A stretch of 39,325 bases of DNA from positions 1 to 39,325 of the forward strand of contig CACZFE010000003.1 of the NCBI GenBank assembly GCA_902780365.1, given 5' to 3'. Both the position numbers and the translations under genes were made by a program. This document shows, piece by piece, positions 22,241-39,325 of the stretch. The stretch comes from an uncultured Spirochaetales bacterium. Lineage in GTDB: Bacteria; UBP6; UBA1177. A model generated the notes under the pieces. The model searched no databases. It saw only the letters and a program-made list of their open reading frames with translations, and was not told the DNA's origin. Each line of letters starts with the position of its first letter. Position 1 is the stretch's first letter.

Positions 22241-22275
22241 ACTCGCCGGAATCACGAAAAAGCAGGTTCAGATGC

Positions 22276-23361
22276 TTAATCCGGAACACACTCTTTGCCG
22301 TTCCAGAGCAAATCGTCTTTACAGTCGCAACGATATTTTGTCTCGCTTTCAGGGTAACAATCATTATCATATGCGTCAGGAATATCCCTGCACGGTTCGG
22401 AATTACACGGATCGTAGACACATTTTCCCTCAAACCAGAAATATCCGTCAAGACATCTTGTGCAGCGGAGACTTTTGATATCATCGGCATGTTCACTTCC
22501 GCAGACACTGTCTATCCCGCCATTGCTGAAATTTACCGCCAAAACACATAAAGCATCATCAGTACGTACAAATGAGTTTGACCATAATTCTTCTTTGTCG
22601 CCGAATTTGCTGTATTCGACTGTCTCGTTTTCTTCGCATGATTCACAGTTTTCAAGGTGACAGTCAAAATACTCACAGATAAATTCACAATCTCCGCCAG
22701 GCTGAGTGTTAGGACAGTTCTGGATCAAAGTCCTCAATTGATCAATATAAGGAGATTCCCAGTCGGACGATCCTCCTTCTGACAATTCCCAACACTTTTT
22801 TTGTTGCCAGTTGTCTGACATTTTTGACGACCACACAAGCCAAGTGGCAGAATCTTTGCATGGAGTGGCGCTTTCAGGGCTGCATTCAGGAAGTTCGGCA
22901 CATTTTTCGCCGTCAAAACTGTATCCGTTTTCGCAAATGCAGAGGAATTGTTCTTTTGATTCAGAAATACACTCTTTCAAATTGGTATCTCCGCATGGGT
23001 TCGGATCACACGGGGAAACACACTTCAGCTCTGTCTCATTCCAAAAATAGCCTTTTTCACATCCGCATTCGTATTCATCGTAGCTCAGCGAAGTGCACTC
23101 GCCTGTTGAATGAGCTATTTTGCACGATTTGCTGTCGCACGGATTTACGCATGCATCCCTTGTGTCCCAGTTCCAGAAATAATTTTCCTCGCATTTGCAG
23201 TAAGCATTAAAGAAACCCGGATTGCAAACTCCGGTAGAATGACTTACAGTCTCACATTGTTTAAGTTCGCAATCTGTTTTCCAGTCCCAATCATCAAAGA
23301 GTTTGCACGCTGGAAGTGAAAAAATCAAAAACAGTGCAAAAAGCAGAAATAGTTTTTTCAT
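22276..23361 (-). CDS. Cys-rich lipoprotein with EGF-like repeats and a DUF1566-like module
   Basis: Signal peptide plus lipobox MKKLFLLFALFLIFSLPAC. Repeated C-x-C-xxGYFW-x-C EGF-like units are present. A central SDWESPYIDQLRTLIQNCP motif is shared with the lipoproteins at 32365 and 38845. Confidence 0.75.
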   Translation of the reverse strand: MKKLFLLFALFLIFSLPACKLFDDWDWKTDCELKQCETVSHSTGVCNPGFFNAYCKCEENYFWNWDTRDACVNPCDSKSCKIAHSTGECTSLSYDEYECGCEKGYFWNETELKCVSPCDPNPCGDTNLKECISESKEQFLCICENGYSFDGEKCAELPECSPESATPCKDSATWLVWSSKMSDNWQQKKCWELSEGGSSDWESPYIDQLRTLIQNCPNTQPGGDCEFICEYFDCHLENCESCEENETVEYSKFGDKEELWSNSFVRTDDALCVLAVNFSNGGIDSVCGSEHADDIKSLRCTRCLDGYFWFEGKCVYDPCNSEPCRDIPDAYDNDCYPESETKYRCDCKDDLLWNGKECVPD

Positions 23362-23532
23362 TTTGCGGCCTCCGCATCAAAAAAACAAGTAATTTTAAGG
23401 AAAATCAAGAAAAAGGCAAGTTAAAGGGTGCAATGTCTGTTTTTTTCTTGCCGTTATCGGCAAAAAATTGCGTTTTTAAGGTAAATTTTGTAAAATTCTT
23501 GCCGATAGATTGTTTGGTTTTAAGAGGTGTTT

Positions 23533-24414
23533 ATGGAATATTTGTCTGTGGCTCAGTTCGCCGAAAAGTCCGGTTTAAGCGAAAGGACAGTCCGCAACTA
23601 CTGCGCGACCGGAAAGATGGAAGGTGCTTTTCTTGTCGGAAAAACGTGGAATATTCCCTCAGATGCGGTCCTGCCAAAGCGCATGAAAACAAAAATGACT
23701 CCGCTTTTGACCACACTACGTGAGCAGAAAGAATCCAAACTCAAAGGGGGAATTTACCACAGGACGCAGGTCGAACTGACATACAGCTCGAACCACATCG
23801 AAGGGAGCAGACTCACGAAAGATCAGACGCGGTTTATATTTGAGACCAACAAGCTCGGTTTCGCGTCAAAAAACACAAATGTCGATGATATTATTGAAAC
23901 CGTCAATCATTTCAGGTGTATAGACTTTGTTATCGACCACGCTCAAGAAAAAATCACAGAATCTCACATAAAGCAGCTTCACTCGATTTTGAAGGAATCG
24001 ACTTCGGATAGCCGCAAATCATGGTTTGCGGTCGGCGCATACAAACATTTTCCGAACGAAATCGGATTCGAGGAAACAACATTGCCTGAGGATGTCCACA
24101 GCCGTGTGAAAACGCTTCTTGCCGCTTACAACGCGCTGAAAGAGGTGAAATTTGACGATATTCTCGATTTTCATGTGCAGTTCGAGCGGATCCATCCGTT
24201 CCAGGACGGAAACGGCAGAGTAGGCAGACTTCTCATGTTCTGGCAGTGCCTGAAATCGGGAATAGTCCCGTTCATAATCACAGAAAATCTGCGTCTTTAT
24301 TATTACCGCGGGATCCAGAACTGGGGAAAACACAACGCATTCCTGCGCGACACCTGCCTTTCGGCGCAGGATGACTACAAAGCACTGCTCGATTATTTCA
24401 GGATCAAATATTGA
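23533..24414 (+). CDS. Fic-family protein (AMPylase-type) with N-terminal HTH
   Basis: Canonical Fic motif HPFQDGNGRVGR (nt 24193-24228). N-terminal MEYLSVAQFAEKSGLSERTVRNYCATGKM is a MerR/excisionase-like HTH. SNHIEG (nt 23788-23805) fits the (S/T)xxxE(G/N) inhibitory-helix pattern. AAGAGG lies 5 nt upstream of ATG 23533. Confidence 0.9.
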   Translation: MEYLSVAQFAEKSGLSERTVRNYCATGKMEGAFLVGKTWNIPSDAVLPKRMKTKMTPLLTTLREQKESKLKGGIYHRTQVELTYSSNHIEGSRLTKDQTRFIFETNKLGFASKNTNVDDIIETVNHFRCIDFVIDHAQEKITESHIKQLHSILKESTSDSRKSWFAVGAYKHFPNEIGFEETTLPEDVHSRVKTLLAAYNALKEVKFDDILDFHVQFERIHPFQDGNGRVGRLLMFWQCLKSGIVPFIITENLRLYYYRGIQNWGKHNAFLRDTCLSAQDDYKALLDYFRIKY

Positions 24415-24503: not shown

Positions 24504-25469
24504 ATGGCGAATTTAGAAAGAATTGCTTACATGAATCACAGGATCAAGACGCGCGGTTTTGTTACGCGGCAGGAAGTTGCGGAACGTTTTGAAGTCCACA
24601 TCGACACGGTCCTTCGGGACATCGGATATATGCGGGACTATCTTTCCGCGCCGATAAAATACAGCCGCGAGCTTGGCGGATATGTTTACGAATCGCCTTT
24701 CGGGATGCTTTTCGATTCATTCGACGACGCTGTTTTCTACTATATTTTCGTGAAGCAACTTAGTGATTCGATGAATCTGAACGGAATCCCTTATGTGCCT
24801 GTTATTTCTAAGGAAATTCTTTCAAAAATTTCAAGTTACATTCCTGCGGAATTTGAGGAGCTGCTTGATAAAATTTCTTACGATTCTTCCGATCTGGACA
24901 CCATGGAAGTGAGCAATTTCAGAAATATTCTGGAATCTATGCTGATGAAAGTGCGCCTTGAAATAAAGTATCTTGACTCAAAAGGCGACATAACTTCCAG
25001 AGCGATAGAACCTATAAAGCTCATAAATTATTCGGGGAAATGGTATCTTTTGGCTTACTGCCACAAGCGGCACGGACTTCGCGAGTTTCTTGTTTCCCGC
25101 TTTGTAGAAAGCCGCATCACTGAAGAACCTTTTTCCGAAATCTACACAAAATCAGAGATCGACAAATTCGTCGGAAGCACCTTCGGAATATACCCGTCGG
25201 AAAAATCGGAAACGGCGACTATCCGCATTTTTGAACCGGCATCCTATTTCTTCCTGAAGCAGAAATGGCACAAAGACCAGGTCACGAAAGAAACTGTTGT
25301 CGACGGGAAAAAATGTCTCGAAATCACCCTTCCGATCGGCGAATACCACAGTGAGATCATTGCCAGGGTAATGAGATATTCGCCTGAATGCGAGATCGTT
25401 TCTCCCCCTTCGCTTCGCAAAGAGTGGCTTGACCACATCAAAATGATCTACAACAAATACTGTAAATAA
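24504..25469 (+). CDS. WYL-domain transcriptional regulator (HTH-WYL-WCX architecture)
   Basis: N-terminal HTH (VTRQEVAERFEVHIDTVLRDIGYMRDYL). WYL domain (RAIEPIKLINYSGKWYLLAYCHKRHGLREFLVSRF). A possible promoter TTGCAA-17 nt-TAGATT lies at 24448-24476. Confidence 0.85.
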   Translation: MANLERIAYMNHRIKTRGFVTRQEVAERFEVHIDTVLRDIGYMRDYLSAPIKYSRELGGYVYESPFGMLFDSFDDAVFYYIFVKQLSDSMNLNGIPYVPVISKEILSKISSYIPAEFEELLDKISYDSSDLDTMEVSNFRNILESMLMKVRLEIKYLDSKGDITSRAIEPIKLINYSGKWYLLAYCHKRHGLREFLVSRFVESRITEEPFSEIYTKSEIDKFVGSTFGIYPSEKSETATIRIFEPASYFFLKQKWHKDQVTKETVVDGKKCLEITLPIGEYHSEIIARVMRYSPECEIVSPPSLRKEWLDHIKMIYNKYCK

Positions 25470-25576
25470 TTTTTTCACTACGACGCTATATGTCGTGGCG
25501 GACTTCTACAATCCGTTTTCAGGTGGGACAGAACACTGTTCCCGTGTTTTAAAAAATGCTGAAAATGGAGGCGGAC
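25438..25576 (+). repeat. leader repeat copy A (overlaps the last 10 codons of the WYL gene, ends at the LRR1 ATG)
   Basis: It shares a near-identical core of about 100 nt with copies B and C. The core contains the inverted repeat CTACGAC-N7-GTCGTGG (25478-25498), the hairpin GGGACAG-aaca-CTGTTCCC (25525-25543) followed by GTGTTTT, and GGAGG (25567-25571). Confidence 0.85.
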
Positions 25577-26266
25577 ATGACGATTTTGGATGAAAAAATG
25601 GCAAAAGAACTTTTAAACATTGGAAGAAACCATGTGGTTATACCTGATTTTGTGACAGAAATCGGAGAAAATGCATTTGAAGACTGCGAAGAAATGACTT
25701 CGGTGGTTATTCCGAACTCAGTTGAGAAAATCGGAGAACAAGCATTTTGCGGTTGCATCGAATTGCAATCACTGGTTATTCCTGCCTCCGTAACAGAAAT
25801 CGGCGAAAGAGCATTTCTCTGTTGCGCCCAGCTGAAATCAGTAGTTATTCCCGATTCCGTGACAGAAATCGGCGCATATGCTTTTCACTGTTGCTTTGAA
25901 CTGACTTCGATCACCGTTGACAAAAACAATCCGAGATACGACTCCCGCGGAGACTGCAACGCAATAATCGAAACAGCCACAAACACTTTAATCAAAGGCT
26001 GTTCAAGCACGATAATTCCTGATACAGTGACAACTATCGGTCAAAGTGCCTTTAAAAACTGCGCCGGACTTACATCCATGGTAATTCCAAATTCAGTTAC
26101 AAAGATAGAAGATTACGCATTTTGCTCCTGTCAGGATCTAATATCCATAACGATACCCGATTCTGTAACACAATTCGGAGAATGTGCCTTTCACGGTTGC
26201 CCCAAAATATCGGAAGAAAGCAAAAAACGACTTGAAGAACTCGGATATGATTTTGATGAGGAGTAA
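25577..26266 (+). CDS. leucine-rich repeat protein, BspA/LRR_5 type, no signal peptide (LRR1)
   Basis: About 23-aa repeats of the form VVIPxSVTxIGxxAFxxCxxLxS, plus the NPRYDSRGDCNAIIE segment typical of BspA-like LRR proteins. The protein starts MTILDEKMAKELL with no hydrophobic leader. ATG 25577 lies 5 nt after GGAGG. Confidence 0.85.
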   Translation: MTILDEKMAKELLNIGRNHVVIPDFVTEIGENAFEDCEEMTSVVIPNSVEKIGEQAFCGCIELQSLVIPASVTEIGERAFLCCAQLKSVVIPDSVTEIGAYAFHCCFELTSITVDKNNPRYDSRGDCNAIIETATNTLIKGCSSTIIPDTVTTIGQSAFKNCAGLTSMVIPNSVTKIEDYAFCSCQDLISITIPDSVTQFGECAFHGCPKISEESKKRLEELGYDFDEE

Positions 26267-26294
26267 GCTGCTGAAATTTTTAAAATAAAAGTTA

Positions 26295-26322
26295 TTGGAA
26301 ATAGTTTTTTGTGTAATATAAT
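26295..26322 (+). promoter_or_regulatory. sigma70-like promoter for the DUF262/DUF1524 gene
   Basis: TTGGAA (26295-26300), a 16-nt spacer, then TATAAT (26317-26322), lying 89 nt upstream of ATG 26411. No experimental support. Confidence 0.45.
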
Positions 26323-26410
26323 GGCGGGATTTTTTAGAGGGAGAAAAAGATGAGCGAAGAACCTAGAATTTTTTTTGGTAAGTTTACTCATAATTAAGGA
26401 GGAAAACAAA

Positions 26411-28255
26411 ATGATTATTTTGACTGAAGCGCATAGTATTGCTGAGATATTTTCAAACGAGGCAAGTAAAAACCGTTTTTACACTATCCCCAAATATCAA
26501 AGAGCTTACACTTGGGGACAAAAGGAGTGGGATCTCCTTTTTGATGATATAATCACAAATGATAACGGATATTTTTTAGGTTCCTTTATCTGTATCAGCA
26601 GAGATAATGCCGGTATGGCATCATTTACTACATTGGAAGTGATTGACGGGCAACAAAGACTAACAACAATGTCGCTCCTTTTAGCGGCATTATATAAGAA
26701 ATTATTACAGCTCAAAAACAGAATGACAGATGAACAAATCTCTGATTTTATTGACTTAAAAAAACGCTTAGTCAAAGAAAAAGACAAAATTCCGACCCCT
26801 GTTTTGACTCTGCAAAATCAGAACCAGAATTGCGATGATTACTTCTGCATTCTGTGCAATGAGTTGAATCTGCTGAAAGATAAACCTAAAATTCAGTACT
26901 ACGGCAATCGAAAAATTTACTCTGCTTATCGTCATTTTATTTCTAGAATAGATGCAGAAGTTGCCGAGCGGCAAAAAGAAGATCCTGAACTTGATTCCAT
27001 TGATACTTACTTTGGATTTGTAAAAAAATTCTGTTCTGCCGTTATGGTTGCCATTGAAGTCGGCAACAACAAAGATGCCTATATGCTTTTTGAATCGTTA
27101 AACAATAGAGGAATCCCCCTTTCCGCAATGGATCTCATTAAAAATTACATGATCGCCAAAGCAGAGAAGTCTGGAAAAATCGACGAATGCCATGAACAAT
27201 GGTTGAGAATCATTGATAATTTGACGGATGATGTCAATATCCAGGAACGTTTTTTCCGTCAGTATTACAATGCATTCAGAGACGAACTGAAGGGACCAAC
27301 TTCTGCGAAAGAAGAGAATGGCAAGTATCGTTTAGGTGCAATCGCAACAAGAACTACACTTTTGGATTTGTACGAAAAGATGATTGATGGTGGGTTGGAA
27401 TCATTTCTAAACAATCTTGAAAAAGAATCTGAAAACTATTCGATTTTAATAAACAATGATGATGCAACTGATAAAAAAGTCAAAAACGCCTTGTTGAACT
27501 TGGAGCGAATTCAGGGCACTCCATCATATATTTCATTACTCTATATTCTTTCAAAAAAGGAAGAACTTGAAATAACCAATGATGTTTTCATAAAAATTAT
27601 TAATTTTCTTACAAAATTCTTCGTTCGACGCAATTTGACAGATATACCGGCTACGAACAAACTGACCAAAATTTTCATGGAATTAAATACTTCATTAAAG
27701 TCAAAGAGAGGAAATGAGGTTTATGAGGAAATCAAAAGAGTTCTAATATCGAAAAGTGCAATAGACTCTGAATTTGAAGAGAAACTCAAAGGTCCTGTTT
27801 ACGACGAAAATGCAGATGTTACCAGATTTTTACTTTGCTTCTACGAAGAAAATTTCAACACCAGAGAACATATTGTCGATCTTTGGTCTCGGGAAAACAA
27901 AAAATATATATGGACTATTGAACACATTTTTCCTGAAGGTGCAAATATACCCGAATATTGGGTAGACATGATTGCTGGTGGAGATTATGACAAAGCAAAA
28001 AAAATCCAAAACGACTATGTTCACACCTTAGGCAACCTAACCATTACGGGATACAACTCCAATTTGGGAAACAAAGCCTTTGAGGAGAAAAAAAATCGTC
28101 AAAAAGACGGGAAGGATATCGGTTATAAAAACGGTCTAAAACTTAATGAAGATGTTGTTTCCCAAGAAAAATGGACTATTGACAACATAACCGCCAGAAC
28201 CGGTAAACTTGTAAAGGAATTTAAGAAGCTTTTTGACTTAAACAACGATAACTAA
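26411..28255 (+). CDS. DUF262 + DUF1524 (GmrSD-like) type IV modification-dependent restriction endonuclease
   Basis: N-terminal DUF262/ParB-like motifs are IPKYQRAYTWGQKEWDLLFDDI and DGQQRLTT. C-terminal His-Me finger DUF1524 motifs are WTIEHIFPEG, HTLGNLTITGYNSNLGNKAF. ATG 26411 is preceded by AAGGAGG. Confidence 0.88.
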   Translation: MIILTEAHSIAEIFSNEASKNRFYTIPKYQRAYTWGQKEWDLLFDDIITNDNGYFLGSFICISRDNAGMASFTTLEVIDGQQRLTTMSLLLAALYKKLLQLKNRMTDEQISDFIDLKKRLVKEKDKIPTPVLTLQNQNQNCDDYFCILCNELNLLKDKPKIQYYGNRKIYSAYRHFISRIDAEVAERQKEDPELDSIDTYFGFVKKFCSAVMVAIEVGNNKDAYMLFESLNNRGIPLSAMDLIKNYMIAKAEKSGKIDECHEQWLRIIDNLTDDVNIQERFFRQYYNAFRDELKGPTSAKEENGKYRLGAIATRTTLLDLYEKMIDGGLESFLNNLEKESENYSILINNDDATDKKVKNALLNLERIQGTPSYISLLYILSKKEELEITNDVFIKIINFLTKFFVRRNLTDIPATNKLTKIFMELNTSLKSKRGNEVYEEIKRVLISKSAIDSEFEEKLKGPVYDENADVTRFLLCFYEENFNTREHIVDLWSRENKKYIWTIEHIFPEGANIPEYWVDMIAGGDYDKAKKIQNDYVHTLGNLTITGYNSNLGNKAFEEKKNRQKDGKDIGYKNGLKLNEDVVSQEKWTIDNITARTGKLVKEFKKLFDLNNDN

Positions 28256-28295: not shown

Positions 28296-28440
28296 CATTA
28301 AAGTTATTGAAATTTCTGCACATAAACCAAAAAATTTTTCACTACGACGCTATATGTCGTAGCGGACTTTTACAATCCGTTTTCAGGTGGGACAGAACAC
28401 AGTTCCCGTGTTTTTTTTAATGATGAAAATGGAGGCGGAC
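28296..28440 (+). repeat. leader repeat copy B (ends at the LRR2 ATG)
   Basis: The same core as copy A. Inverted repeat CTACGAC-N7-GTCGTAG (28342-28362), hairpin region from 28389 followed by GTGTTTTTTTT, and GGAGG (28431-28435). The 5' part (28296-28325) is a degraded homologue of the WYL gene 3' end. Confidence 0.85.
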
Positions 28441-29127
28441 ATGACGATTTTGGATGAAAAAACGGCAAAAGAACTTTTAAACAATGGAGGAAGCCATGTG
28501 GTTATACCTGATTTTGTGACAGAAATCGGAGAAAATGCGTTTGAAGACTGCGAAGAAATGACTTCGGTGGTTATTCCGAATTCAGTTAGAAAAATCGGTA
28601 AAGGTGCATTCCGTTGGTGCGACCACCTGATTTCTGTAGTTATTCCGAATTCAGTTGAGAAAATCGAAGATTTCGCATTTATCAATTGTGCCCAGCTGAA
28701 ATCAGTAATCATTCCGGATTCCGTGACAGAAATCGGCGAAAATGTTTTTCACTGTTGCTTCGAACTGACTTCGATCACCGTTGACAAAAACAATCCGAGA
28801 TACGATTCGCGCGGAGACTGCAACGCAATAATCGAAACAGCCACAAACACTTTGATCAAAGGCTGTTCAAGCACGATAATTCCTGATACCGTGACAACTA
28901 TCGGTAAAAATGCCTTGGAAAACTGCGACATGACATCCGTGGTCATTCCGAATTCAGTTACAAAGATAGAAGATTACGCATTTTGCTGCTGTCAGGATCT
29001 GATATCCATAGTTATCCCCGATTCCGTAACACAAATCGGAAACGCTGTCTTTTGCGGTTGCCCCAAAATATCGGAAAAAAGCAAAAAACGGCTTAAAGAA
29101 CTCGGATATGATTTTGATGGGGATTAG
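28441..29127 (+). CDS. leucine-rich repeat protein, BspA/LRR_5 type, no signal peptide (LRR2, paralogue of LRR1)
   Basis: Nearly identical to LRR1 at both ends (MTILDEK.AKELLN...VVIPDFVTEIGENAFEDCEEMTSVVIPNSV and ...ELTSITVDKNNPRYDSRGDCNAIIETATNTLIKGCSSTIIPDTVTTIG...). It diverges in the second and third repeats. ATG 28441 lies 5 nt after GGAGG. Confidence 0.85.
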   Translation: MTILDEKTAKELLNNGGSHVVIPDFVTEIGENAFEDCEEMTSVVIPNSVRKIGKGAFRWCDHLISVVIPNSVEKIEDFAFINCAQLKSVIIPDSVTEIGENVFHCCFELTSITVDKNNPRYDSRGDCNAIIETATNTLIKGCSSTIIPDTVTTIGKNALENCDMTSVVIPNSVTKIEDYAFCCCQDLISIVIPDSVTQIGNAVFCGCPKISEKSKKRLKELGYDFDGD

Positions 29128-29203
29128 AAATTAAAAAGTCGATTTTAATCCGTTCACAGCTATAATTTGTCAGTTTTTTGATAAATCGACATTTATATCG
29201 GAG

Positions 29204-30889
29204 ATGCCAATGACTGATGCTAACTATTTAATACCATTGAAATTTTTAGAGGAATATGGTGGGAAGCCATATAAAGTTCCTGATAGAGATAAAATGAAAA
29301 AAGCAGGACAAGATGCAACTGGTGAATTGAAAAAAATAGTGAAACTTTGCGATGAAAAATTTCACCTGTGTCAAAGTGGACAAATACGATGGTTGACAAC
29401 TAACGGTCAGAAAATAAAAAGTTATTTGTGGGTTCAGCTTAAATATAAAGATAAAAAGGACGATCCTGTGAGCATTTCTATTTTTGTTGAAAAATCTCCG
29501 AACACATCAAAACCCAGATATCGTTTTTGTCTGGACCTTAAAGATAATGCTATCACAAAAAAAGATCTTGAAAAATTTCACCGTCATCTGGAGATAAAAA
29601 AACCTGATGATCTGGAATATTTTAGTGCGGGAGATGGAACAATACTGTCCCAAAGTCGGGAAGAACTACAGGAAGAAATCAAGAAAGACTCTAATCTAAA
29701 AGTACAAATTGGCAGAGTTGTCGAGGACAAAAATGAATTGACGAACGAAAATATTGAAAAAATAATGCTCGAATTAATACCATTTTATAAGCATGTAACC
29801 GGCAAAGATATTTCTGAAGATAACCAAAAAGACGGAGGTGAAAATATGAAAGATAACTTTGGCAAAAATATGATTCTTTACGGCCCTCCTGGAACCGGAA
29901 AAACATATAACACGGCTATTTATGCGGTTGCGATTTGTTGTCCTGAGCTATCTTTCGAAAAATGGAAAGAAAATTATGAAGAAGTTATGAAGCGTTACAA
30001 AGAACTTAAAAATCAAGGCAGAATTGCTTTCACAACTTTTCATCAGTCTTACGGATATGAGGAATTCATAGAGGGAATAAAACCTGTTACGAAAAGTGAT
30101 CAAACCGGCGATATCAAATACGAAATCAAGCCTGGAATATTCAAAGAATTCTGTGAGAAAGCCGGAAAAGACAAGGACAATAATTATGTTTTCATTATTG
30201 ATGAAATAAACCGAGGAAATATCTCGAAAATTTTTGGTGAATTGATCACTCTTATTGAAGACACCAAAAGAGAAGGAAGAACTGAAGAAATGTACGCGAA
30301 GCTTCCCTACTCCCAAAAAGACTTTAGTGTTCCGAATAATGTTTATATTATCGGAACAATGAATACAGCCGACCGTTCTATCGCTCTTATGGATACAGCA
30401 CTTCGCCGTCGTTTTCAGTTCATTGAAATGATGCCCAATTACGAACTCCTTGAAGGGAAAAAAATTACAAAAGATGGAAAAGAGATTGATCTTAAAAAAA
30501 TGCTCGAAACCATAAACAATCGCATTGAATGCTTATATGACAGAGAACACACTATCGGACACGCTTTATTTATGGGGCTTACAGAAAAATCCGATATTAA
30601 AGACTTGCAGAAGATTTTTGAAAAATCCTTGATTCCGCTTTTGCAGGAATATTTCTACGAAGATTATCAAAAAATTCAGTTTGTTCTTGGTCATAAATTC
30701 ATCGAAGAAACTAAAAACACAGATGTTTTTAAAGGGAATGTCGATATAGATCTCCCAGAAACAAGGTATGAATTGAACAAAAAGGCTCTTAATGATATAG
30801 AAAGCTATATCGAAATATACGAGGAAATACTCAAACAGAAACCGAAAAACCCAAAGATACAAGTGACAATAAATGAAAGAACTTCTTGA
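29204..30889 (+). CDS. mcrB: McrB-like AAA+ GTPase subunit of a type IV restriction system, with an unassigned N-terminal domain
   Basis: Walker A LYGPPGTGKT (nt 29882-29905), FIIDEINRGNISKIFGELITLIE and IIGTMNTADRSIALMDTALRRRF are McrB/AAA_5 signatures. I could not assign residues 1 to about 205. ATG 29210 (GGAG 6 nt upstream) is an alternative start. Confidence 0.85.
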   Translation: MPMTDANYLIPLKFLEEYGGKPYKVPDRDKMKKAGQDATGELKKIVKLCDEKFHLCQSGQIRWLTTNGQKIKSYLWVQLKYKDKKDDPVSISIFVEKSPNTSKPRYRFCLDLKDNAITKKDLEKFHRHLEIKKPDDLEYFSAGDGTILSQSREELQEEIKKDSNLKVQIGRVVEDKNELTNENIEKIMLELIPFYKHVTGKDISEDNQKDGGENMKDNFGKNMILYGPPGTGKTYNTAIYAVAICCPELSFEKWKENYEEVMKRYKELKNQGRIAFTTFHQSYGYEEFIEGIKPVTKSDQTGDIKYEIKPGIFKEFCEKAGKDKDNNYVFIIDEINRGNISKIFGELITLIEDTKREGRTEEMYAKLPYSQKDFSVPNNVYIIGTMNTADRSIALMDTALRRRFQFIEMMPNYELLEGKKITKDGKEIDLKKMLETINNRIECLYDREHTIGHALFMGLTEKSDIKDLQKIFEKSLIPLLQEYFYEDYQKIQFVLGHKFIEETKNTDVFKGNVDIDLPETRYELNKKALNDIESYIEIYEEILKQKPKNPKIQVTINERTS

Positions 30890-32177
30890 AGTAAGGGAGT
30901 TTGACTCAATAGTATGCGGAAGTGTCCGCGAAAACAGTAGCAATTGCAAGCCGTTAGATAAAGTGCAATTCGACGAGCTTCTTAAATTTATCCGTGAATT
31001 TAGCAGTGACGAAGCAAACAGTGATGCTTTGGAATTTATGAGAATCGGCTATAAGCGCAATATCGGAGATTTCATAAACATCAGAAATTATGTCGGGCTG
31101 ATTCAACTGAGAAACGGATTCCAAGTGCAGATTCTTCCTAAAATCGATTTTGGGAAAGATGACCAAGATAATTCTCAGACAAAGAAAGTATTTCTGAAAA
31201 TGCTCAGGAGCTTGAAGAATTTTCCTTGCAAGGCTTTCAATGACGCAAACTTGAAAGTAGACAAGATGAACCTTTACGAGATATTCATAAATATGTATCT
31301 CCAAGAAGTTCGTCAGTTGGTAAAAAGAGGAATAAAATCAGACTATGTAACTCAGGAAGACAATATTTCGCACTACAAAGGAAAACTTCTTGTAAACCAG
31401 CATATACAGATGAATTTTGCCCACAAAGAGCGTTTTTATGTCGCGTTCGATGAATTTCATCCTAACCGACCAGAAAACCGTCTTGTCAAAGCTACACTTA
31501 AAAAACTGCTCAAATTAACCGCAAGCACAGAAAACTCAAAAGAAATCAGACAGTTGTTGTCAGCGTTTGAAATGGTAGAGTCATCAGTAAATTATGAAAA
31601 AGATTTTTCGAAAGTCATCATAGACAGAAATACCGATGACTACAAAATGCTGATGCAATGGTCAAAAGTGTTTTTGATGAACAAAAGTTTCAGCACTTTT
31701 TCCGGCAGCAGCAATTCAAGTGCTCTGCTTTTTCCGATGGAACGTGTTTATGAAAGCTATGTTGCACAGCATATAAAAAAGATCTTCACATCTGACGGAT
31801 GGGAAGTATCTACTCAGGATAAAGGATGTTATTTATTCACGGAACCAAAACGATTTGCCTTAATACCGGATATTGTCCTGGAAAAAGATAAGCGTACTGT
31901 GATAATGGACACCAAGTGGAAAAGCCTTGTTGATGATGAGAGTAAAAATTATGGAATATCGCAAAATGACATGTATCAGATGTACGCATATTCAAAAAAG
32001 TATAAAGCCAAAGAAGTTTGGTTGCTCTATCCGATGAACGAAGCAATGCGTAATCACTCATCAATTTCATTTGAAAGCGATGAAAAAGATGAAAAAACTC
32101 TAGTCAGCTTACATTTTGTCGAGGTTGACGAGATAGAAAAGAGCCTTGGGGAACTTAAAAATAAATTAGCTCATTGA
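30873..32177 (+). CDS. mcrC: McrC-like PD-(D/E)xK nuclease subunit
   Basis: It overlaps the mcrB-like stop by 17 nt. The C-terminal IPDIVLEKDKRTVIMDTKWK (about nt 31869-31916) is the McrC D...D-x-K nuclease motif. Size (434 aa) and position are as in McrBC operons. Confidence 0.8.
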   Translation: MKELLEVREFDSIVCGSVRENSSNCKPLDKVQFDELLKFIREFSSDEANSDALEFMRIGYKRNIGDFINIRNYVGLIQLRNGFQVQILPKIDFGKDDQDNSQTKKVFLKMLRSLKNFPCKAFNDANLKVDKMNLYEIFINMYLQEVRQLVKRGIKSDYVTQEDNISHYKGKLLVNQHIQMNFAHKERFYVAFDEFHPNRPENRLVKATLKKLLKLTASTENSKEIRQLLSAFEMVESSVNYEKDFSKVIIDRNTDDYKMLMQWSKVFLMNKSFSTFSGSSNSSALLFPMERVYESYVAQHIKKIFTSDGWEVSTQDKGCYLFTEPKRFALIPDIVLEKDKRTVIMDTKWKSLVDDESKNYGISQNDMYQMYAYSKKYKAKEVWLLYPMNEAMRNHSSISFESDEKDEKTLVSLHFVEVDEIEKSLGELKNKLAH

Positions 32178-32215: not shown

Positions 32216-32364
32216 TCAAAATGATCTACAAAAATTTCTGCAAATAAACCTCAAAAAATCTTTTACTACGACGCTATATGTCGTAGCGGGCTTCTACAAT
32301 CCGTTTTCAGTTGGGACAGGACACTGTTCCCGTGTTTTCAATGATGAAAATGGAGGAAAAAAAG
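32216..32364 (+). repeat. leader repeat copy C (ends at the lipoprotein ATG)
   Basis: It starts with tcaaaatgatctaca (32216-32230), identical to 25438-25452 within the WYL gene. Then come a WYL-tail-like ...ttctgcaaaTAA, the inverted repeat CTACGAC-N7-GTCGTAG (32266-32286), the hairpin GGGACAG-gaca-CTGTTCCC plus GTGTTTT, and GGAGG (32352-32356). Confidence 0.85.
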
Positions 32365-33540
32365 ATGAAAAAAATTCTTGTTATTTCGGCTGTTTTTGCA
32401 ACGGTGTTTCTGATCGTTTCATGCGGCGGAAGCACACAAAACAAGAGCGAAGCAAGTGGCAACGGCGAAAAGCCTGATTCTGACGAGCAGGACTCCGAGG
32501 CAGACGATTCAGCGGAATGTAAAAGCGGCCAATTCAAATGCGCCGATTCAGAATCCCTTTACTGCAACAGCTTCGGCTCGTGGGTATTCGATGCGCGTTG
32601 TGAAAACGGCTGTGATCCTGCAACAGGAAAATGCAAAACCGATTCAAATGATAATGATATCGCCGCCGATACTGAGAATGATAATGACAGCGATTTTGAA
32701 AATAACGATACCTCTGACTCCGGCGATGATAATGATTTTGACAACAGCGACACCGCTGATTCCGGCAATGACAGCGATATTGAAAGCAGTGATAATGACC
32801 ACGAAATTCCTGACAATTCCGGCTGCACAGACGGCAAATACAAATGTATTGACTGGGCTTCATGGGTCTGCAATGATTCACATTGGAACTTTAAAGAAAC
32901 TTGCGAATACGGATGTGATCCGGCAACAGGAAAGTGCAAATCTTCAGAATGCATTGACGGAAAATACGAATGTCGTACCGATTATTATTCTAAAGGTCAT
33001 TCTTATTACTGCGACAACGGTCTTTGGGAACACGATCTGTCATGTGAAAACGGCTGTGATTCTGCTACCGGCAAATGCAAAGATATGTGCTATGAAATAG
33101 ATAATAAAACATGGTCTTATTCCAGATCATCAATGACTTGGGAAGCGGCCAAAGAATTTTGCGATAATATGGTTAACTGCGGATATTCAGACTGGCATCT
33201 GCCGACAATCAGTGAACTTAGAACCCTGATTCAAAACTGTCCGGCTACAGAAACTGGCGGAGAATGCGGAGTCTCCGATCAGTGTTTATCATCTAACGAA
33301 TGCTATTATATACATAATGATGGTGACAATAGTTTTTCAACCATCTGTGGTCTTGGTTGTTCTGATTTTTTTAATAGCGGAAAATACAGTAAATTCGGAG
33401 ACAATGATCGTTTTTGGTCATCTTCGCTTCAAGATGATACCGATTCCATCCAAGTATGGGTAGTATATTTTGCCATGGGAATGATACATAGCACTAGTTC
33501 TAATGATTATACACTCCATTCTGTTAGATGCGTGAGATAA
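32365..33540 (+). CDS. lipoprotein with three Cys-knot-like modules, an acidic D/N/S linker and a C-terminal DUF1566 domain
   Basis: MKKILVISAVFATVFLIVSC gives a signal peptide plus lipobox starting exactly at the ATG that follows GGAGG. The module C..G.(F/Y)(K/E)C....C......W......CE.GCD.ATGKCK occurs three times. The linker spans nt 32638-32823. The DUF1566-type segment is CGYSDWHLPTISELRTLIQNCP...RFWSSS...VRCVR. Confidence 0.8.
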   Translation: MKKILVISAVFATVFLIVSCGGSTQNKSEASGNGEKPDSDEQDSEADDSAECKSGQFKCADSESLYCNSFGSWVFDARCENGCDPATGKCKTDSNDNDIAADTENDNDSDFENNDTSDSGDDNDFDNSDTADSGNDSDIESSDNDHEIPDNSGCTDGKYKCIDWASWVCNDSHWNFKETCEYGCDPATGKCKSSECIDGKYECRTDYYSKGHSYYCDNGLWEHDLSCENGCDSATGKCKDMCYEIDNKTWSYSRSSMTWEAAKEFCDNMVNCGYSDWHLPTISELRTLIQNCPATETGGECGVSDQCLSSNECYYIHNDGDNSFSTICGLGCSDFFNSGKYSKFGDNDRFWSSSLQDDTDSIQVWVVYFAMGMIHSTSSNDYTLHSVRCVR

Positions 33541-37105: not shown

Positions 37106-37189
37106 GCGGAGAAGTGGTTGGTCGCAGAGCCTCGGTCACTGAGCCTGTCGAAGCACTACCTCACACAATGGACGGAATATTTATTGATT
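37106..37189. repeat. direct repeat copy 1 flanking the AbiE cassette (contains a remnant of a lipoprotein gene 3' end)
   Basis: The core 37125-37173 (49 nt) matches 38815-38862 with one indel and one substitution. On the - strand it reads ...V H C V R TAG, against ...V R C V R TAG at the real gene end in copy 2. Weaker similarity extends to 37106 and 37189. Confidence 0.85.
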
Positions 37190-37191
37190 TT

Positions 37192-38031
37192 TTATGAGAT
37201 CAAATCCAGCAGTTTCTCAATGCTTTCAACAGCTTGTTCGAACGAAACATCGGCTGCATACGGCATTTTCTTTGTGTATTTCTGCCACAAATCTTTCAGG
37301 TTTTCCGAATTTTTTATGGCTGCAATCAAATCAGGAATCTGTGAAAGAATTTTTTCACTGCCTCTGTGCTCGCAAGTCCGTTGAAGAGCGGTTTTCAAAT
37401 CTTTGGTATTTATCCGTGTTAAATCCGCACTTAAAACATATACATCGTAAAAATCACGCGGGCGGGTTGTCGTGATATTCCTGACAAGAATCGTTTCCAG
37501 TTTTTCCGCAAGAACATTTTCAAAGGGATAAGAAAGCAGCGAAATCGAGCCGTTTCCAAAGATTTTCGCGAATTCATGTCTGCGCGGTTTCGGATAAATG
37601 CTGTCTCCGGCAGTGATATCCAAAGTCAAAGTGTGGTGCATTTTTTCGTAATCAGCCAACACGAACGCCCTGAAACCGTTGTATTTGTCGTCCTCGCGAA
37701 TCGGTTCGACCCGATCCGGAGAAAAGATAAAATCATCATCGTTTTCGATTGCACAAACATCTGAAATTATTCTTGTTATGACATTTTCATCAAGCGGAAG
37801 ATTGTTGATAGTCGTGTCGATATCCATCGTAGTTCGGTGCGAAATTCCTACAAAAGATGCTATCAGAACACCGCCTTTTATTATAAAACGGTCTGCATAT
37901 TCCGATTTTTCAAGGCGTTCAAGAAAACATTCCATCAGATAATTCTGCAGCATAATCTGCGGCGGAACGGAAAGTTCCTTGGATTTGTTATTGATTCTGG
38001 CTTTAAGCTGCATCGCGTTTTCGGTTTTCAT
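37192..38031 (-). CDS. abiEii: AbiEii/AbiGii-family nucleotidyltransferase toxin (type IV TA)
   Basis: The N-terminus ...LQNYLMECFLERLEKSEYADRFIIKGGVLI...RTTMDIDTT is the DUF1814/AbiEii pattern. It overlaps the upstream antitoxin gene by 4 nt. Confidence 0.82.
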   Translation of the reverse strand: MKTENAMQLKARINNKSKELSVPPQIMLQNYLMECFLERLEKSEYADRFIIKGGVLIASFVGISHRTTMDIDTTINNLPLDENVITRIISDVCAIENDDDFIFSPDRVEPIREDDKYNGFRAFVLADYEKMHHTLTLDITAGDSIYPKPRRHEFAKIFGNGSISLLSYPFENVLAEKLETILVRNITTTRPRDFYDVYVLSADLTRINTKDLKTALQRTCEHRGSEKILSQIPDLIAAIKNSENLKDLWQKYTKKMPYAADVSFEQAVESIEKLLDLIS

Positions 38032-38615
38032 TGGATCGCCTCCAAATAGGAGAGAAGTTTTTTCTCGACATGGAAAATCTTTCCGAATTTCATCAGCAGC
38101 AGAAAGTCTTTTTGCGGTGATGCCACATATTTCCTTAAAGCCGGGATAAACCGCTCTTTATCAAGTCCTGAAGGCTTGTGCAGGAGTTCGCACAATGTCC
38201 TTTCAATGCAGTAAACCCGCAGGTCGTTACCAAGATCAGACTTTATAAGCACAACTCCTTCATTCAAGGATTCTTTTGCAACATGACGCACATCGTATTC
38301 AGCGGACAGCGTTTTTGAAATATAGCCGTGCGGAACCGAAAGCGTGTATTTAAACGGAATCTGATCCGAATACCCGTTCAGAAACAATGCCGTCTCATGC
38401 GAAAATACAGCTTTCGGGCAAAGCAGCTGAGTGATAAAAAGTTCGTCAGGAATAACATCGCCCATAGCATATAGACCGTAACGGACTTTCTGAATTTTCT
38501 GAGCATTCAAAAGTTCCTGCAACTGCCAGCGTGAAATTCCGGCATCTGTCGCATTTTTCAAAGTAAAATAGCCGTTTTTAGCTTTTGCTATTTTGTTTAT
38601 CACATTATCTGCCAA
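38028..38615 (-). CDS. abiEi: AbiEi-family antitoxin/transcriptional regulator
   Basis: N-terminal winged helix (GYFTLKNATDAGISRWQLQELLNAQKIQKVRYGLY), a size of about 195 aa, and translational coupling to the AbiEii gene. Confidence 0.8.
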   Translation of the reverse strand: MADNVINKIAKAKNGYFTLKNATDAGISRWQLQELLNAQKIQKVRYGLYAMGDVIPDELFITQLLCPKAVFSHETALFLNGYSDQIPFKYTLSVPHGYISKTLSAEYDVRHVAKESLNEGVVLIKSDLGNDLRVYCIERTLCELLHKPSGLDKERFIPALRKYVASPQKDFLLLMKFGKIFHVEKKLLSYLEAIQ

Positions 38616-38795: not shown

Positions 38796-38862
38796 GCCGG
38801 AGAGGGCTTGGCTACAGAGCCCGGTCACTGAGCCTGTCGAAGCACTACCTCACACAACGGAC
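38796..38862. repeat. direct repeat copy 2 flanking the AbiE cassette (overlaps the stop and last codons of the lipoprotein gene)
   Basis: See copy 1. Positions 38845-38862 are the stop codon plus the last five codons (VRCVR) of the - strand lipoprotein gene. Confidence 0.85.
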
Positions 38863-39325
38863 CCAAAGCTTGGTACTTTTATTGAGGTAGCCCACATCTC
38901 CAGTGAGGAAGCCAACATTCCAAGCGATATTGGAATTATCTGATTCAGATGAAGACCAAAGAGTAACATTCTCATCATCCTCCAGAAGGCTGTAATGTCC
39001 GCCATTGTCGCAATGACAGTCTTCGATGCTCCAGTCATCCAGAGAGAGATGATCAGGGGCTGAAACAGCGCATGAACCGCCTGTCTGCGAATTTGGACAG
39101 TTTTGAATAAGCGTTCTTAACTCGTTTATATTCGGCAGCCGCCAGTCGGAATATCCGCATTCGTTCAACCCGTCACAGTAATCAAGTGCTTCCTGCCACT
39201 CCATGGTATCCGATGACAGCGGCGACCACCAGCCGCTGTTGATTGTTGCGCAGTTTCCTGAATCGGAGCTGCTGCCACCGCCGCAACCAATCATCAAAAA
39301 CATTGTAATCATTGCAAAACAAACA
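38845..39325 (-). CDS. DUF1566-domain lipoprotein, probably 5'-incomplete at the window edge
   Basis: GYSDWRLPNINELRTLIQNCPNSQTGGSCAV...LWSSS...LWVRCVR, paralogous to 32365-33540. The frame stays open upstream of Met 39312 to the window end (..VCFAMITMFLMIGC looks like a signal h-region plus lipobox), so the true start is probably beyond 39325. Confidence 0.72.
   Translation of the reverse strand, partial: VCFAMITMFLMIGCGGGSSSDSGNCATINSGWWSPLSSDTMEWQEALDYCDGLNECGYSDWRLPNINELRTLIQNCPNSQTGGSCAVSAPDHLSLDDWSIEDCHCDNGGHYSLLEDDENVTLWSSSESDNSNIAWNVGFLTGDVGYLNKSTKLWVRCVR

What the first reader, a model, noticed from the sequence alone, without database searches (positions are those of the whole stretch)
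32216..32247. Remnants of the WYL gene 3' end sit downstream of the DUF262 gene and of mcrC: defence genes occupy former WYL-paralogue slots
The intact WYL gene ends atc aaa atg atc tac aac aaa tac tgt aaa TAA (IKMIYNKYCK stop, 25437-25469).

Thirty-nine nt after the mcrC stop, copy C reads tc aaa atg atc tac aaa aat ttc tgc aaa TAA (KMIYKNFCK stop). Here 15 of 15 nt are identical (32216-32230 vs 25438-25452). A clearly homologous tail follows, including the stop codon at the same place relative to the leader.

Copy B (28296-28325, cattaaagttattgaaatttctgcacataa) is a more degraded version of the same tail.

**Inference.** One possibility is that the duplicated unit began inside a WYL gene. 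The other is that WYL-gene paralogues once preceded LRR2 and the lipoprotein gene and were replaced by the DUF262 and McrBC cassettes, leaving only their last ~30 nt. Either way the conserved flanks define exchangeable slots for defence cargo.
Basis: seen in the sequence. Interest (0 to 1): 0.62.

Follow-up and report, generated by a model that had tools for sequence, protein, structure and literature searches.

The report
Regulator-gene relics mark swappable defence cassettes
The short sequence after mcrC is a real leftover of the end of a regulator (WYL) gene that travels with copies of that regulator's own promoter, and these promoter copies mark the borders of anti-phage gene cassettes that differ from strain to strain in an uncultured rumen bacterium.

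Summary
Window 32216-32247 matches the last 32 nt of the WYL gene (25438-25469) at 28/32 positions, ungapped and including the stop (0 of 2000 shuffles score as high). Copy B keeps only the last 16 nt (15/16 identical to C).

WYL homologues down to 50% identity end in ...YEKFCK*. The tail is therefore old coding sequence, and copy C (..NFCK*) is closer to that ancestral ending than the resident gene (..KYCK*).

The relic rides on a ~55-nt module "E": an A/T tract, CACTACGAC-GCTATAT-GTCGTAGCG, 6 nt, then TACAAT.
- The box equals the published DriD consensus ATACGAC-N7-GTCGTAT.
- It sits where a -35 element would be, 8 nt from the -10 as in DriD promoters.
- Paralogous WYL genes carry the same layout upstream of themselves, with paralogue-specific arms.
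- The modelled WYL protein best matches PafBC and DriD.

Genomes whose WYL is 97-99% identical carry different cargo between E copies: four GmrSD families, McrBC, PD-(D/E)XK, GIY-YIG, Abi_2, NYN, toxin-antitoxin pairs and lipoproteins.

The "exchangeable slots" idea is supported. "Former WYL paralogues in each slot" is not shown. A promoter unit that begins inside WYL and spreads by recombination fits better, although decaying WYL copies do exist elsewhere. All evidence is computational, from metagenome assemblies.

The parts
24504..25469 (+). WYL regulator gene (321 aa; wHTH-WYL-WCX, DriD/PafBC-like)
   Evidence: Pfam WYL 6.4e-16, with weak HTH_11 and WCX. PADLOC WYL 7.8e-33. The AF2 model's top 30 Foldseek PDB hits are all PafBC, DriD, BrxR or CapW.
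25438..25469 (+). Genuine 3' end of WYL (..KMIYNKYCK*), the template of the relics
25470..25524 (+). E copy A: T tract, box CACTACGAC-GCTATAT-GTCGTGGCG (25476-25500), TACAAT (25507-25512), then CCGTTTTCAGGT. It lacks the 11-nt A tract seen in relatives and has one arm mismatch.
25525..25550 (+). Terminator-like hairpin plus U run in the leader of LRR1
25577..26266 (+). LRR1 (BspA-type LRR_5). The ORF opens at 25556; the likely start is at 25577, behind GGAGG.
26411..28255 (+). GmrSD/DUF262 type IV restriction enzyme, with its own sigma-70-like promoter at 26295-26322
28310..28325 (+). Tail relic B, significant part (aaatttctgcacataa). 28296-28309 cannot be shown to be homologous.
28326..28388 (+). 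E copy B: ACC plus A/T tract, box 28340-28364, TACAAT 28371-28376
28441..29127 (+). LRR2 (82% identical to LRR1)
29204..30889 (+). McrB-like AAA_5 GTPase
30873..32177 (+). McrC
   Evidence: PF10117, 3.9e-96
32216..32247 (+). Tail relic C (the finding): tcaaaatgatctacaaaaatttctgcaaataa, a pseudo-ending ..KMIYKNFCK*
32248..32312 (+). E copy C: ACCTCAAAAAATCTTT, box 32264-32288, TACAAT 32295-32300
32365..33540 (+). Lcl_C-domain lipoprotein (signal peptide with lipobox ..LIVSC), the last cassette before plsX

Best explanation
The 32 nt at 32216-32247, and the more eroded 16 nt at 28310-28325, are non-functional relics of the last codons of a WYL regulator gene. They persist because they lie directly upstream of a ~55-nt promoter module, E, which in its original position starts right after the WYL stop codon.

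**What E is (inferred).** E is a DriD-type, activator-dependent promoter:
- an A/T tract, probably an UP element;
- a 9-7-9 inverted repeat, TACGAC-N7-GTCGTA, placed where a -35 hexamer would be;
- 6 nt (8 nt counted from the 7-nt arm) and then TACAAT.

**How it probably works (inferred).** The WYL protein is a wHTH-WYL-WCX dimer. It probably binds this box, most likely after sensing single-stranded DNA as DriD, PafBC and CapW do, and switches on the first gene behind each E copy.

**How the relics arose (inferred).** A duplication that began at least ~50 nt inside WYL created a tail-plus-E unit. Homologous recombination between E copies, and between other shared linkers such as the LRR gene and its downstream promoter, then spread, swapped, added and deleted cassettes between WYL and plsX. 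The result is a strain-variable defence island.

**Shown versus inferred.**
- Shown: homology of the relics, the architecture and conservation of E, the match to the DriD box, the variability of the cargo, and the fold of the protein.
- Inferred: binding, activation, the signal, and the recombination route.
For: **The relic is real.**
- 28/32 nt ungapped with the stop in register; 0 of 2000 shuffles score as high.
- The WYL family ends ..YEKFCK*.
- Further collinear relics precede E behind HNH (L016:14412, p=0.007), ORF6N (L045:4262, ~52 nt, p<0.003), GmrSD-b (L101:673, p=0.013) and GmrSD-a (p~0.02).

**E is a regulator-dependent promoter.**
- 47 E copies were found in the window and related loci. 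They are conserved from the A/T tract to ~13 nt past TACAAT and diverge sharply after that.
- The same layout lies upstream of the paralogous WYL genes, 29-36 nt before their SD and ATG. Arms are group-specific: TACGAC, TCAGGC or TTGGGC. Spacing is invariant.
- Arm symmetry covaries: 81.7% of cells paired, covariation 0.445 versus 0.183 in shuffles, 0 of 500 shuffles reach it.
- G2 and C4 of the half-site are invariant, as in DriD sites.

**Match to published DriD promoters.**
- The DriD consensus is ATACGAC(N7)GTCGTAT with an AT-rich spacer (PMC10853764).
- DriD boxes overlap the -35 position at a fixed distance from the -10, and those promoters lack a -35 hexamer (PMC13004042).
- In the published oligos I read 8 nt between the right arm and the hexamer, as in E.
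- Foldseek's best hits for the WYL model are PafBC (6e-14) and DriD (4e-13).
- The box occurs only at the three E copies in the window.

**The cargo is exchangeable.** Searches show this. Upstream cargo plus tail plus E can be identical and then diverge just after E: window C versus L089:1796, and window B versus L092:678.
Against: - No experiment supports binding or activation. The RNA contigs are too sparse to map a start site. One RNA contig (25489-25639, run X24) begins inside the box, which means read-through from WYL or DNA carry-over.
- The window's own WYL gene has no such box upstream, unlike DriD and the paralogues.
- GmrSD and McrB have their own sigma-70-like promoters behind the LRR genes. 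E may therefore drive only the LRR and lipoprotein genes, not the nucleases.
- The sign of regulation is unknown. BrxR and CapW are repressors.
- About a third of internal E copies show no recognisable tail.
- Decaying WYL copies in L034 and L045 keep the paralogue-replacement scenario alive.
- Every sequence comes from a metagenome assembly or a MAG.
Confidence: 0.6

Rival explanations
1. Complete WYL paralogues once stood in front of LRR2 and of the lipoprotein gene, in an array of WYL-E-gene units. They were overwritten or deleted when the GmrSD and McrBC cassettes arrived. Only the ~30 nt next to the indispensable promoter survived.
For: - Each genome carries three WYL paralogue groups.
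- WYL genes do decay in related loci. L045 has a 418-nt internal deletion and lies next to E cassettes. L034 has a ~320-nt 3' remnant 5 kb after an intact WYL. L081 is a 5' fragment.
- The relic lengths form a series: 545, 320, 52, 32 and 16 nt.
Against: - No internal E of the 98% group is preceded by more than ~52 nt of WYL in about 22 distinct contexts.
- Most internal copies share 'AAACC' after the ex-stop, which suggests one common ancestor unit rather than several decayed genes.
- The same tail types follow different cargo, and the same cargo is followed by different tails.
- No locus shows two intact WYL genes in one array.
Confidence: 0.2
2. E, with its 9-7-9 inverted repeat, is a site for a site-specific tyrosine recombinase, as in integron attC sites or Xer/dif modules. 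Cassettes move as circles. The WYL tail is part of the recombination site.
For: - E copies are directly repeated and contain a palindrome with an asymmetric 7-nt spacer.
- The arrays consist of one- or two-gene cassettes.
- Content varies between strains.
Against: - No integrase lies within the window or within 10 kb of WYL.
- E contains no GTTRRRY/RYYYAAC cores (by inspection).
- The box sits at a fixed distance from a -10 hexamer and also occurs singly upstream of paralogous WYL genes.
- Homology breakpoints lie at the right edge of E or anywhere within it, not at the spacer.
- Tail lengths vary.
Confidence: 0.08
3. The tail sequence is itself functional. It could be an extra operator half-site, an alpha-CTD contact, or part of an RNA element at the end of the upstream transcript. 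It would then be conserved by selection rather than by descent.
For: It lies at about -60 to -90 of the putative promoter, and several cassettes keep it.
Against: - It is absent or unrecognisable in about a third of internal E copies, and it varies in length.
- B is heavily eroded, yet its E is intact.
- The paralogues' autoregulatory promoters have unrelated sequence at that position.
- There is no Rfam match.
Confidence: 0.05
4. Chance resemblance in AT-rich intergenic DNA.
For: Copy B versus the resident WYL tail alone is not significant.
Against: - A versus C: 0 of 2000 shuffles reach the score.
- The matches are collinear with E.
- Independent relics occur in other genomes.
Confidence: 0.01

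Closest known systems
DriD of Caulobacter crescentus and its regulon promoters (PMC10853764, PMC13004042)
   Same: - Homodimeric wHTH-3HB-WYL-WCX fold; the Foldseek hit to DriD is 4e-13.
- Box ATACGAC-N7-GTCGTAT versus CTACGAC-N7-GTCGTAG here, with an AT-rich 7-nt spacer.
- The box covers the -35 position, 8 nt from the -10, with no -35 hexamer.
- One regulator serves several promoters.
- The DriD regulon includes a nuclease (bapE).
   Different: - Protein identity is only ~15%, and the wHTH cannot be aligned by sequence.
- The promoters here are tandem copies along one island, not scattered across the genome.
- There is no box upstream of this WYL gene itself.
- The targets are defence-island cassettes, LRR genes and lipoprotein genes, not DNA-repair genes.
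- ssDNA sensing is untested.
BrxR/CapW-family WYL regulators at the head of phage-defence islands (PMC9122601, PMC11662680)
   Same: - A WYL regulator gene lies directly upstream of, and co-oriented with, varied defence systems.
- The operators are inverted repeats.
- The associated cargo is highly variable.
   Different: - BrxR and CapW are repressors whose operators lie in their own promoter, with one or two sites per island.
- Here the operator-promoter lies downstream of the regulator gene, is repeated before each cassette, and resembles activator (DriD) promoters.
- Relics of the regulator gene at cassette borders are not described for that family.
Integrons, including sedentary chromosomal integrons that store defence cassettes (bioRxiv 10.1101/2024.07.02.601686)
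   Same: - An array of small cassettes separated by a repeated ~60-130-nt element that contains an imperfect palindrome.
- Content varies between strains and is rich in defence genes.
   Different: - There is no IntI integrase and no attC core sites.
- The repeat is a promoter at the 5' side of each cassette.
- Exchange is most likely by homologous recombination.
Orphan toxin/immunity modules of CDI and Rhs loci (from general knowledge)
   Same: Displaced cassettes keep a short stretch of the upstream gene. That stretch marks their origin and can serve as homology for recombination.
   Different: Here the relic comes from the 3' end of a regulator gene, has no coding role, and lies next to a promoter.
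Core-gene-flanked defence hotspots (PMC10250203)
   Same: The island has a fixed chromosomal address, between Fic-WYL and plsX-yceD, with variable defence content.
   Different: The island has internal repeated promoter linkers that subdivide it into slots.

Membership tests
wHTH-WYL-WCX transcription factors (DriD/PafBC/BrxR/CapW) | Central WYL (Sm-like) domain | tested here: met
   Pfam PF13280 at 6.4e-16, 58.6 bits against a cut-off of 21.8. PADLOC WYL at 7.8e-33.
wHTH-WYL-WCX transcription factors (DriD/PafBC/BrxR/CapW) | N-terminal winged HTH and C-terminal WCX dimerisation domain | tested here: met
   Pfam HTH_11 and WCX are only sub-threshold (5e-4 and 4e-4). However, the AF2 model (pLDDT 77.5) gives full-length Foldseek hits to PafBC, DriD, BrxR and CapW, which fill the top 30.
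wHTH-WYL-WCX transcription factors (DriD/PafBC/BrxR/CapW) | Ligand (ssDNA) binding in the WYL domain controls DNA binding | not testable with these tools
   Requires biochemistry.
DriD-type activator-dependent promoter | Pseudo-palindromic box xCGxC-N7-GxCGx with an AT-rich spacer (consensus ATACGAC-N7-GTCGTAT) | tested here: met
   CTACGAC-GCTATAT-GTCGTAG in copies B and C; one mismatch in A. Consensus taken from PMC10853764.
DriD-type activator-dependent promoter | Box overlaps the -35 position at a fixed distance from a -10 element; no -35 hexamer | tested here: met
   There are 8 nt between the 7-nt right arm and TACAAT/TATAAT in all 17 aligned promoters. My reading of the published didA, CCNA_03891 and bapE oligos gives the same 8 nt. 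The positions 16-18 nt upstream of TACAAT read CGCTAT, ACGCTA or GCTATA (by inspection).
DriD-type activator-dependent promoter | Regulator binds a site in its own promoter | tested here: not met
   There is no box in the 125 nt upstream of the window's WYL or of other genes in the 92-98% group. The 68% and 59% paralogues do have one.
DriD-type activator-dependent promoter | Transcription from the promoter depends on the regulator plus ssDNA | not testable with these tools
   The RNA contigs are too sparse.
BrxR/CapW defence-island regulators | Regulator gene heads a defence island | tested here: met
   WYL is followed by GmrSD and McrBC here, and by many other systems in relatives.
BrxR/CapW defence-island regulators | Repressor acting at an operator downstream of or overlapping its own promoter | tested here: inconclusive
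   There is no operator at its own promoter. The sign of regulation is unknown.
Integron | IntI tyrosine recombinase next to the array | tested here: not met
   No integrase domain appears among the window ORFs or in the called genes within 10 kb of WYL.
Integron | attC sites with R''/L''-L'/R' cores (RYYYAAC ... GTTRRRY) | tested here: not met
   E contains neither core (inspection).
Integron | Promoterless cassettes read from one Pc promoter | tested here: not met
   Each cassette is headed by its own promoter-like E.

The most novel reading that the evidence does not exclude
The locus is an integrase-free, promoter-delimited cassette system. A DriD-like, probably ssDNA-sensing, WYL activator owns an expandable row of defence cassettes. 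Each cassette sits behind a copy of the regulator's promoter. These copies still carry the regulator gene's last codons. They double as the homology that lets cassettes be gained, lost and swapped between strains. The result would be a functional analogue of an integron, built from a regulon promoter and homologous recombination, with damage- or infection-inducible expression of every slot.
Probability: 0.35. Interest if true: 0.78.

Novelty: new variant of a known kind. Interest (0 to 1): 0.64.

Why it matters
WYL regulators are known to sit at the head of defence islands. Their sites have so far been single operators at their own promoters, and the characterised defence-linked ones are repressors.

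Here one regulator's DriD-type box-plus-promoter is copied before each slot of a hypervariable island in an uncultured rumen lineage (UBP6). The copies still carry a fingerprint of where they came from, namely the regulator's last codons.

If the inference holds, three things follow:
- It gives a simple rule for finding cassette borders and new defence genes in such islands: search for the box.
- It suggests how a whole island can be switched on by one damage or infection signal.
- It shows an integron-like organisation that needs no dedicated recombinase.

It also extends the DriD box, almost unchanged, to a phylum far from Alphaproteobacteria.

Tried and rejected
- **Rfam.** A scan of the whole window found only tRNA-Trp, so E is not a described RNA family.
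- **Single-strand folding of the three copies.** It gave modest z-scores (-1.5 to -3.2) and no shared structure beyond the two hairpins.
- **Sigma-70 and terminator scan.** Promoter-like hits were no more frequent than in shuffles. E is not called because it has no -35.
- **Metatranscriptome contigs (four runs).** These showed only scattered single-read contigs over WYL, LRR1 and GmrSD. No start site could be read.
- **IMG/VR scan for the box.** It found 0 hits, so E is not a phage or satellite element.
- **Sequence alignment of the wHTH to DriD,** to check Arg37 and Arg41. Neither the profile search nor the N-terminal fragment search aligns the HTH, so contact residues could not be compared.
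- **Ungapped breakpoint statistics on the left side of E.** Indels in the A tract make them uninformative. Only the right boundary, ~50 nt from the box start, is clear.
- **"WYL-E-lipoprotein" as a strictly orthologous ancestral layout.** The 68% paralogues are followed by signal-peptide proteins, but only the Lcl_C domain is related to the window's lipoprotein (37% over 134 aa). This is suggestive only.
- **Association of SNPs right of the palindrome with upstream or downstream cargo.** They are shuffled relative to both. This cannot separate homologous from site-specific recombination.

Full report
**1. The observation**

- The WYL gene most likely starts at the ATG at 24504, behind GGAG. 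It ends ...atc aaa atg atc tac aac aaa tac tgt aaa TAA at 25469.
- Copy C (32216-32247) begins 39 nt after the mcrC stop.
- Copy C matches the last 32 nt of WYL at 28 positions without a gap. The first 16 nt are identical and the stop codon is in register.
- A local alignment of the 80 nt upstream of each copy scores 44. Two thousand dinucleotide shuffles gave mean 14.8, sd 2.4 and maximum 27.
- Copy B resembles copy C only over its last 16 nt (15/16; 3 of 2000 shuffles reach it). On its own it does not resemble the resident WYL tail significantly.

One detail needs correcting. The ex-stop lies 6, 14 and 16 nt before the inverted repeat in A, B and C. In related genomes the real WYL stop is followed by 17 nt, so copy A of this window has lost an 11-nt A tract.

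The junctions are not assembly errors. Single contigs from the source sample span them, and independent MAGs show the same order.

**2. The tail is old coding sequence**

WYL homologues from 92% down to about 50% identity almost all end ...(I/L)Y(E/K)KFCK*. The tail therefore belongs to the gene and was not donated by a repeat.
- Copy C reads ..KMIYKNFCK*. It keeps the ancestral ..FCK*, while the resident gene has ..NKYCK*.
- Copy C matches a 91% relative's tail at 29/32 and the resident tail at 28/32.
- Copy C also shares the ATG (Met) codon that only the 98% group has.

So copy C was copied from this lineage's WYL before the resident ending changed, or the resident ending was later overwritten.

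**3. What the tail is attached to**

An nhmmer search with the core found 47 copies of a module I call E. They lie in the window, in 8 species-level MAGs and in 13 rumen metagenome contigs.

The conserved part is AAAAAAT(N)TTT-CACTACGAC-GCTATAT-GTCGTAGCG-GNCTTN-TACAAT-CCGTTTTCAGGT. Homology between copies stops sharply about 13 nt after TACAAT. After that point the leaders differ according to the downstream gene.

The organism belongs to rumen MAGs labelled UBP6 or "uncultured Spirochaetales". E is absent from IMG/VR and matches no Rfam family.

**4. E is a regulator-dependent promoter**

Each genome has three WYL paralogue groups, at about 98%, 68% and 59% identity to the window's protein.

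The 68% and 59% genes carry the same architecture upstream of themselves, 29-36 nt before their SD and ATG. The 68% genes also carry it downstream, in front of a signal-peptide protein gene. The architecture is an A/T tract, a 9-nt arm, a 7-nt AT-rich spacer, a 9-nt arm, 6 nt and then TATAAT or TATGAT.

The arms are group-specific: TACGAC, TCAGGC and TTGGGC. The spacing never changes. On an alignment of 17 such promoters:
- the arms stay complementary (81.7% of cells, versus about 30% when one arm is slid);
- they covary between groups (score 0.445 versus 0.183 in shuffles; 0 of 500 shuffles reach it).

Some of these boxes lie behind divergently oriented genes, and none is followed by a U run. 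A terminator or 3'-hairpin role is therefore unlikely.

**5. The match to DriD**

- The published DriD consensus is ATACGAC(N7)GTCGTAT, with conserved G2 and C4 and an AT-rich spacer (PMC10853764). E has CTACGAC-GCTATAT-GTCGTAG, and all three paralogue boxes keep xGxC.
- Cryo-EM work shows that DriD boxes overlap the place of the -35 element at one fixed distance from the -10, and that these promoters lack a -35 hexamer (PMC13004042).
- In the published oligos I read 8 nt between the 7-nt right arm and the hexamer, the same as in E. This spacing is my own reading, not a statement in the paper.
- The AF2 model of the window's WYL protein (pLDDT 77.5) finds only wHTH-WYL-WCX regulators among its top 30 PDB matches. 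PafBC (6e-14) and DriD (4e-13) come ahead of BrxR and CapW.
- The box occurs nowhere else in the window.

I conclude that E is the target promoter of this WYL regulator. Binding, the ssDNA signal and the sign of regulation are inferred from the family and are not shown here.

**6. The slots are exchangeable**

In genomes whose WYL is 97-99% identical, the stretch between WYL and plsX-yceD carries different genes between E copies:
- four unrelated GmrSD families, McrBC and a PD-(D/E)XK protein;
- a LEM-3-type GIY-YIG protein, and an FtsK-like ATPase paired with GmrSD or HNH;
- Abi_2, NYN, Bro-N, ORF6N and Fic;
- YafQ/RelB, SH3 membrane proteins, Lcl_C lipoproteins and the BspA-type LRR protein.

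Other DNA runs show further variants:
- a population with WYL, GmrSD and the lipoprotein but no McrBC;
- E copy B followed by the FtsK-like leader;
- a mini-insert after the WYL stop.

Upstream cargo, tail and E can be identical between two genomes and then diverge immediately after E. Examples are window C versus L089:1796 and window B versus L092:678.

**7. Where the relics come from**

Collinear WYL-tail relics precede E behind GmrSD-a, McrC, an HNH protein, an ORF6N protein (~52 nt, the longest) and GmrSD-b. About a third of internal copies show none, mostly where the upstream gene is on the other strand.

About two thirds of internal copies share "AAACC" (or "CCC") right after the ex-stop. 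The WYL-adjacent copies of the 98% group instead have TAATTTTT. A 92% WYL (L090) has TAATACCC.

This pattern fits one ancestral unit, made of at least 52 nt of WYL plus E, that later spread by recombination and was eroded from the left.

A hybrid WYL with a 59%-type front and a 92/98%-type last ~190 nt plus flank (L102) hints that WYL 3' ends move together with what follows them. That scaffold is short, however, and could be chimeric.

**8. Limits**

- All data are assemblies from metagenomes.
- The RNA data were too sparse to see a start site. One RNA contig starts inside the box.
- This WYL gene lacks a box of its own.
- The nucleases have separate promoter-like sequences behind the LRR genes. 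E may therefore control the LRR and lipoprotein genes directly and the nucleases only by read-through.
- No integrase or attC-like core was found. A host recombinase acting on the palindrome cannot be fully excluded.

**9. Verdict**

- The feature is best described as a passenger relic that labels copies of a DriD-type promoter. Those copies partition a WYL-headed defence island into swappable cassettes.
- This is a new variant of a known kind: WYL-regulated defence islands, and the DriD regulon.

Noticed in passing
window 25577-26266 and 28441-29127; L009, L011, L013, L014, L016, L089, L094, L099, L100: A cytoplasmic BspA-type LRR protein (228-236 aa) is the first gene behind E in at least nine cassette types. 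It is followed each time by a different nuclease: four GmrSD families, McrBC, PD-(D/E)XK, GIY-YIG, or an FtsK-like ATPase with HNH or GmrSD. In L093 the LRR gene is reduced to its first ~15 codons and GmrSD follows. The LRR protein may be a shared partner or sensor, or merely a recombination linker.
   Followed up: partly
window 26267-26410 and 29128-29203; L009:4887-4966 vs L014:11832-11928; L100: The spacers behind the LRR genes are themselves shared 'portable' promoter and RBS pieces. One type is identical up to the ATG and then continues as PD-(D/E)XK in L009 but as GIY-YIG in L014. Another type (..GCTATAATTTGTCAG..) precedes McrB here and a GmrSD in L100.
   Followed up: partly
window 25525-25550, 28389-28414, 32313-32338: A terminator-like hairpin (GGGACAG..CTGTTCCC) followed by GTGTTTT lies inside the leader between E and the start codon. 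It is enclosed by a CCGUUUUCAG/CUGAAAAUGG pairing that reaches the Shine-Dalgarno sequence. This may be an attenuator or a translational switch. Other cassettes carry different small hairpins plus a U run at the same place.
   Followed up: no
L014:10966-11046, L096, run X6 at window 25468; L019, L021, L022 after the WYL stop: A ~75-nt insert with a GC-rich hairpin lies between the WYL stop and E in some genomes of both the 98% and the 68% groups. It ends in a second copy of ..GTAAATAA. It is either a small mobile insert or the scar of a lost cassette.
   Followed up: no
L045:10001-10540; L034:16139-16462; L081:7065-7349: WYL pseudogenes. One has a 418-nt internal deletion next to E cassettes. 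One is a ~320-nt 3' remnant 5 kb after an intact paralogue. One is a 95-codon 5' fragment behind its own box.
   Followed up: partly
L102 (protein P0009): A hybrid WYL gene. It has a 59%-type box and N-terminal ~270 codons, but its last ~190 nt and downstream flank are of the 92/98% type. This is either recombination between paralogues or a chimeric 1.9-kb scaffold.
   Followed up: partly
window 37128-37173 and 38817-38862: A ~46-nt direct repeat (41 nt at 98%) flanks an AbiEii toxin gene (37192-38031, minus strand) and its 195-aa partner (38028-38615). It looks like the duplicated target or att of a small inserted toxin-antitoxin module, next to another Lcl_C-domain gene (38845-39312).
   Followed up: partly
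window 21032-24414: The genes just upstream of WYL also match candidate defence families in PADLOC: AAA_14/DUF4143 matches PDC-S01 (1e-151) and the HTH-Fic protein matches PDC-S04/SoFic (2e-104). The island therefore extends to the left of the regulator.
   Followed up: partly
window 25470-25500: Copy A of this strain lacks the 11-nt A tract that all related WYL-adjacent E copies have. It also has one arm mismatch (GTCGTGG). The first promoter of the array may be weakened in this strain.
   Followed up: no
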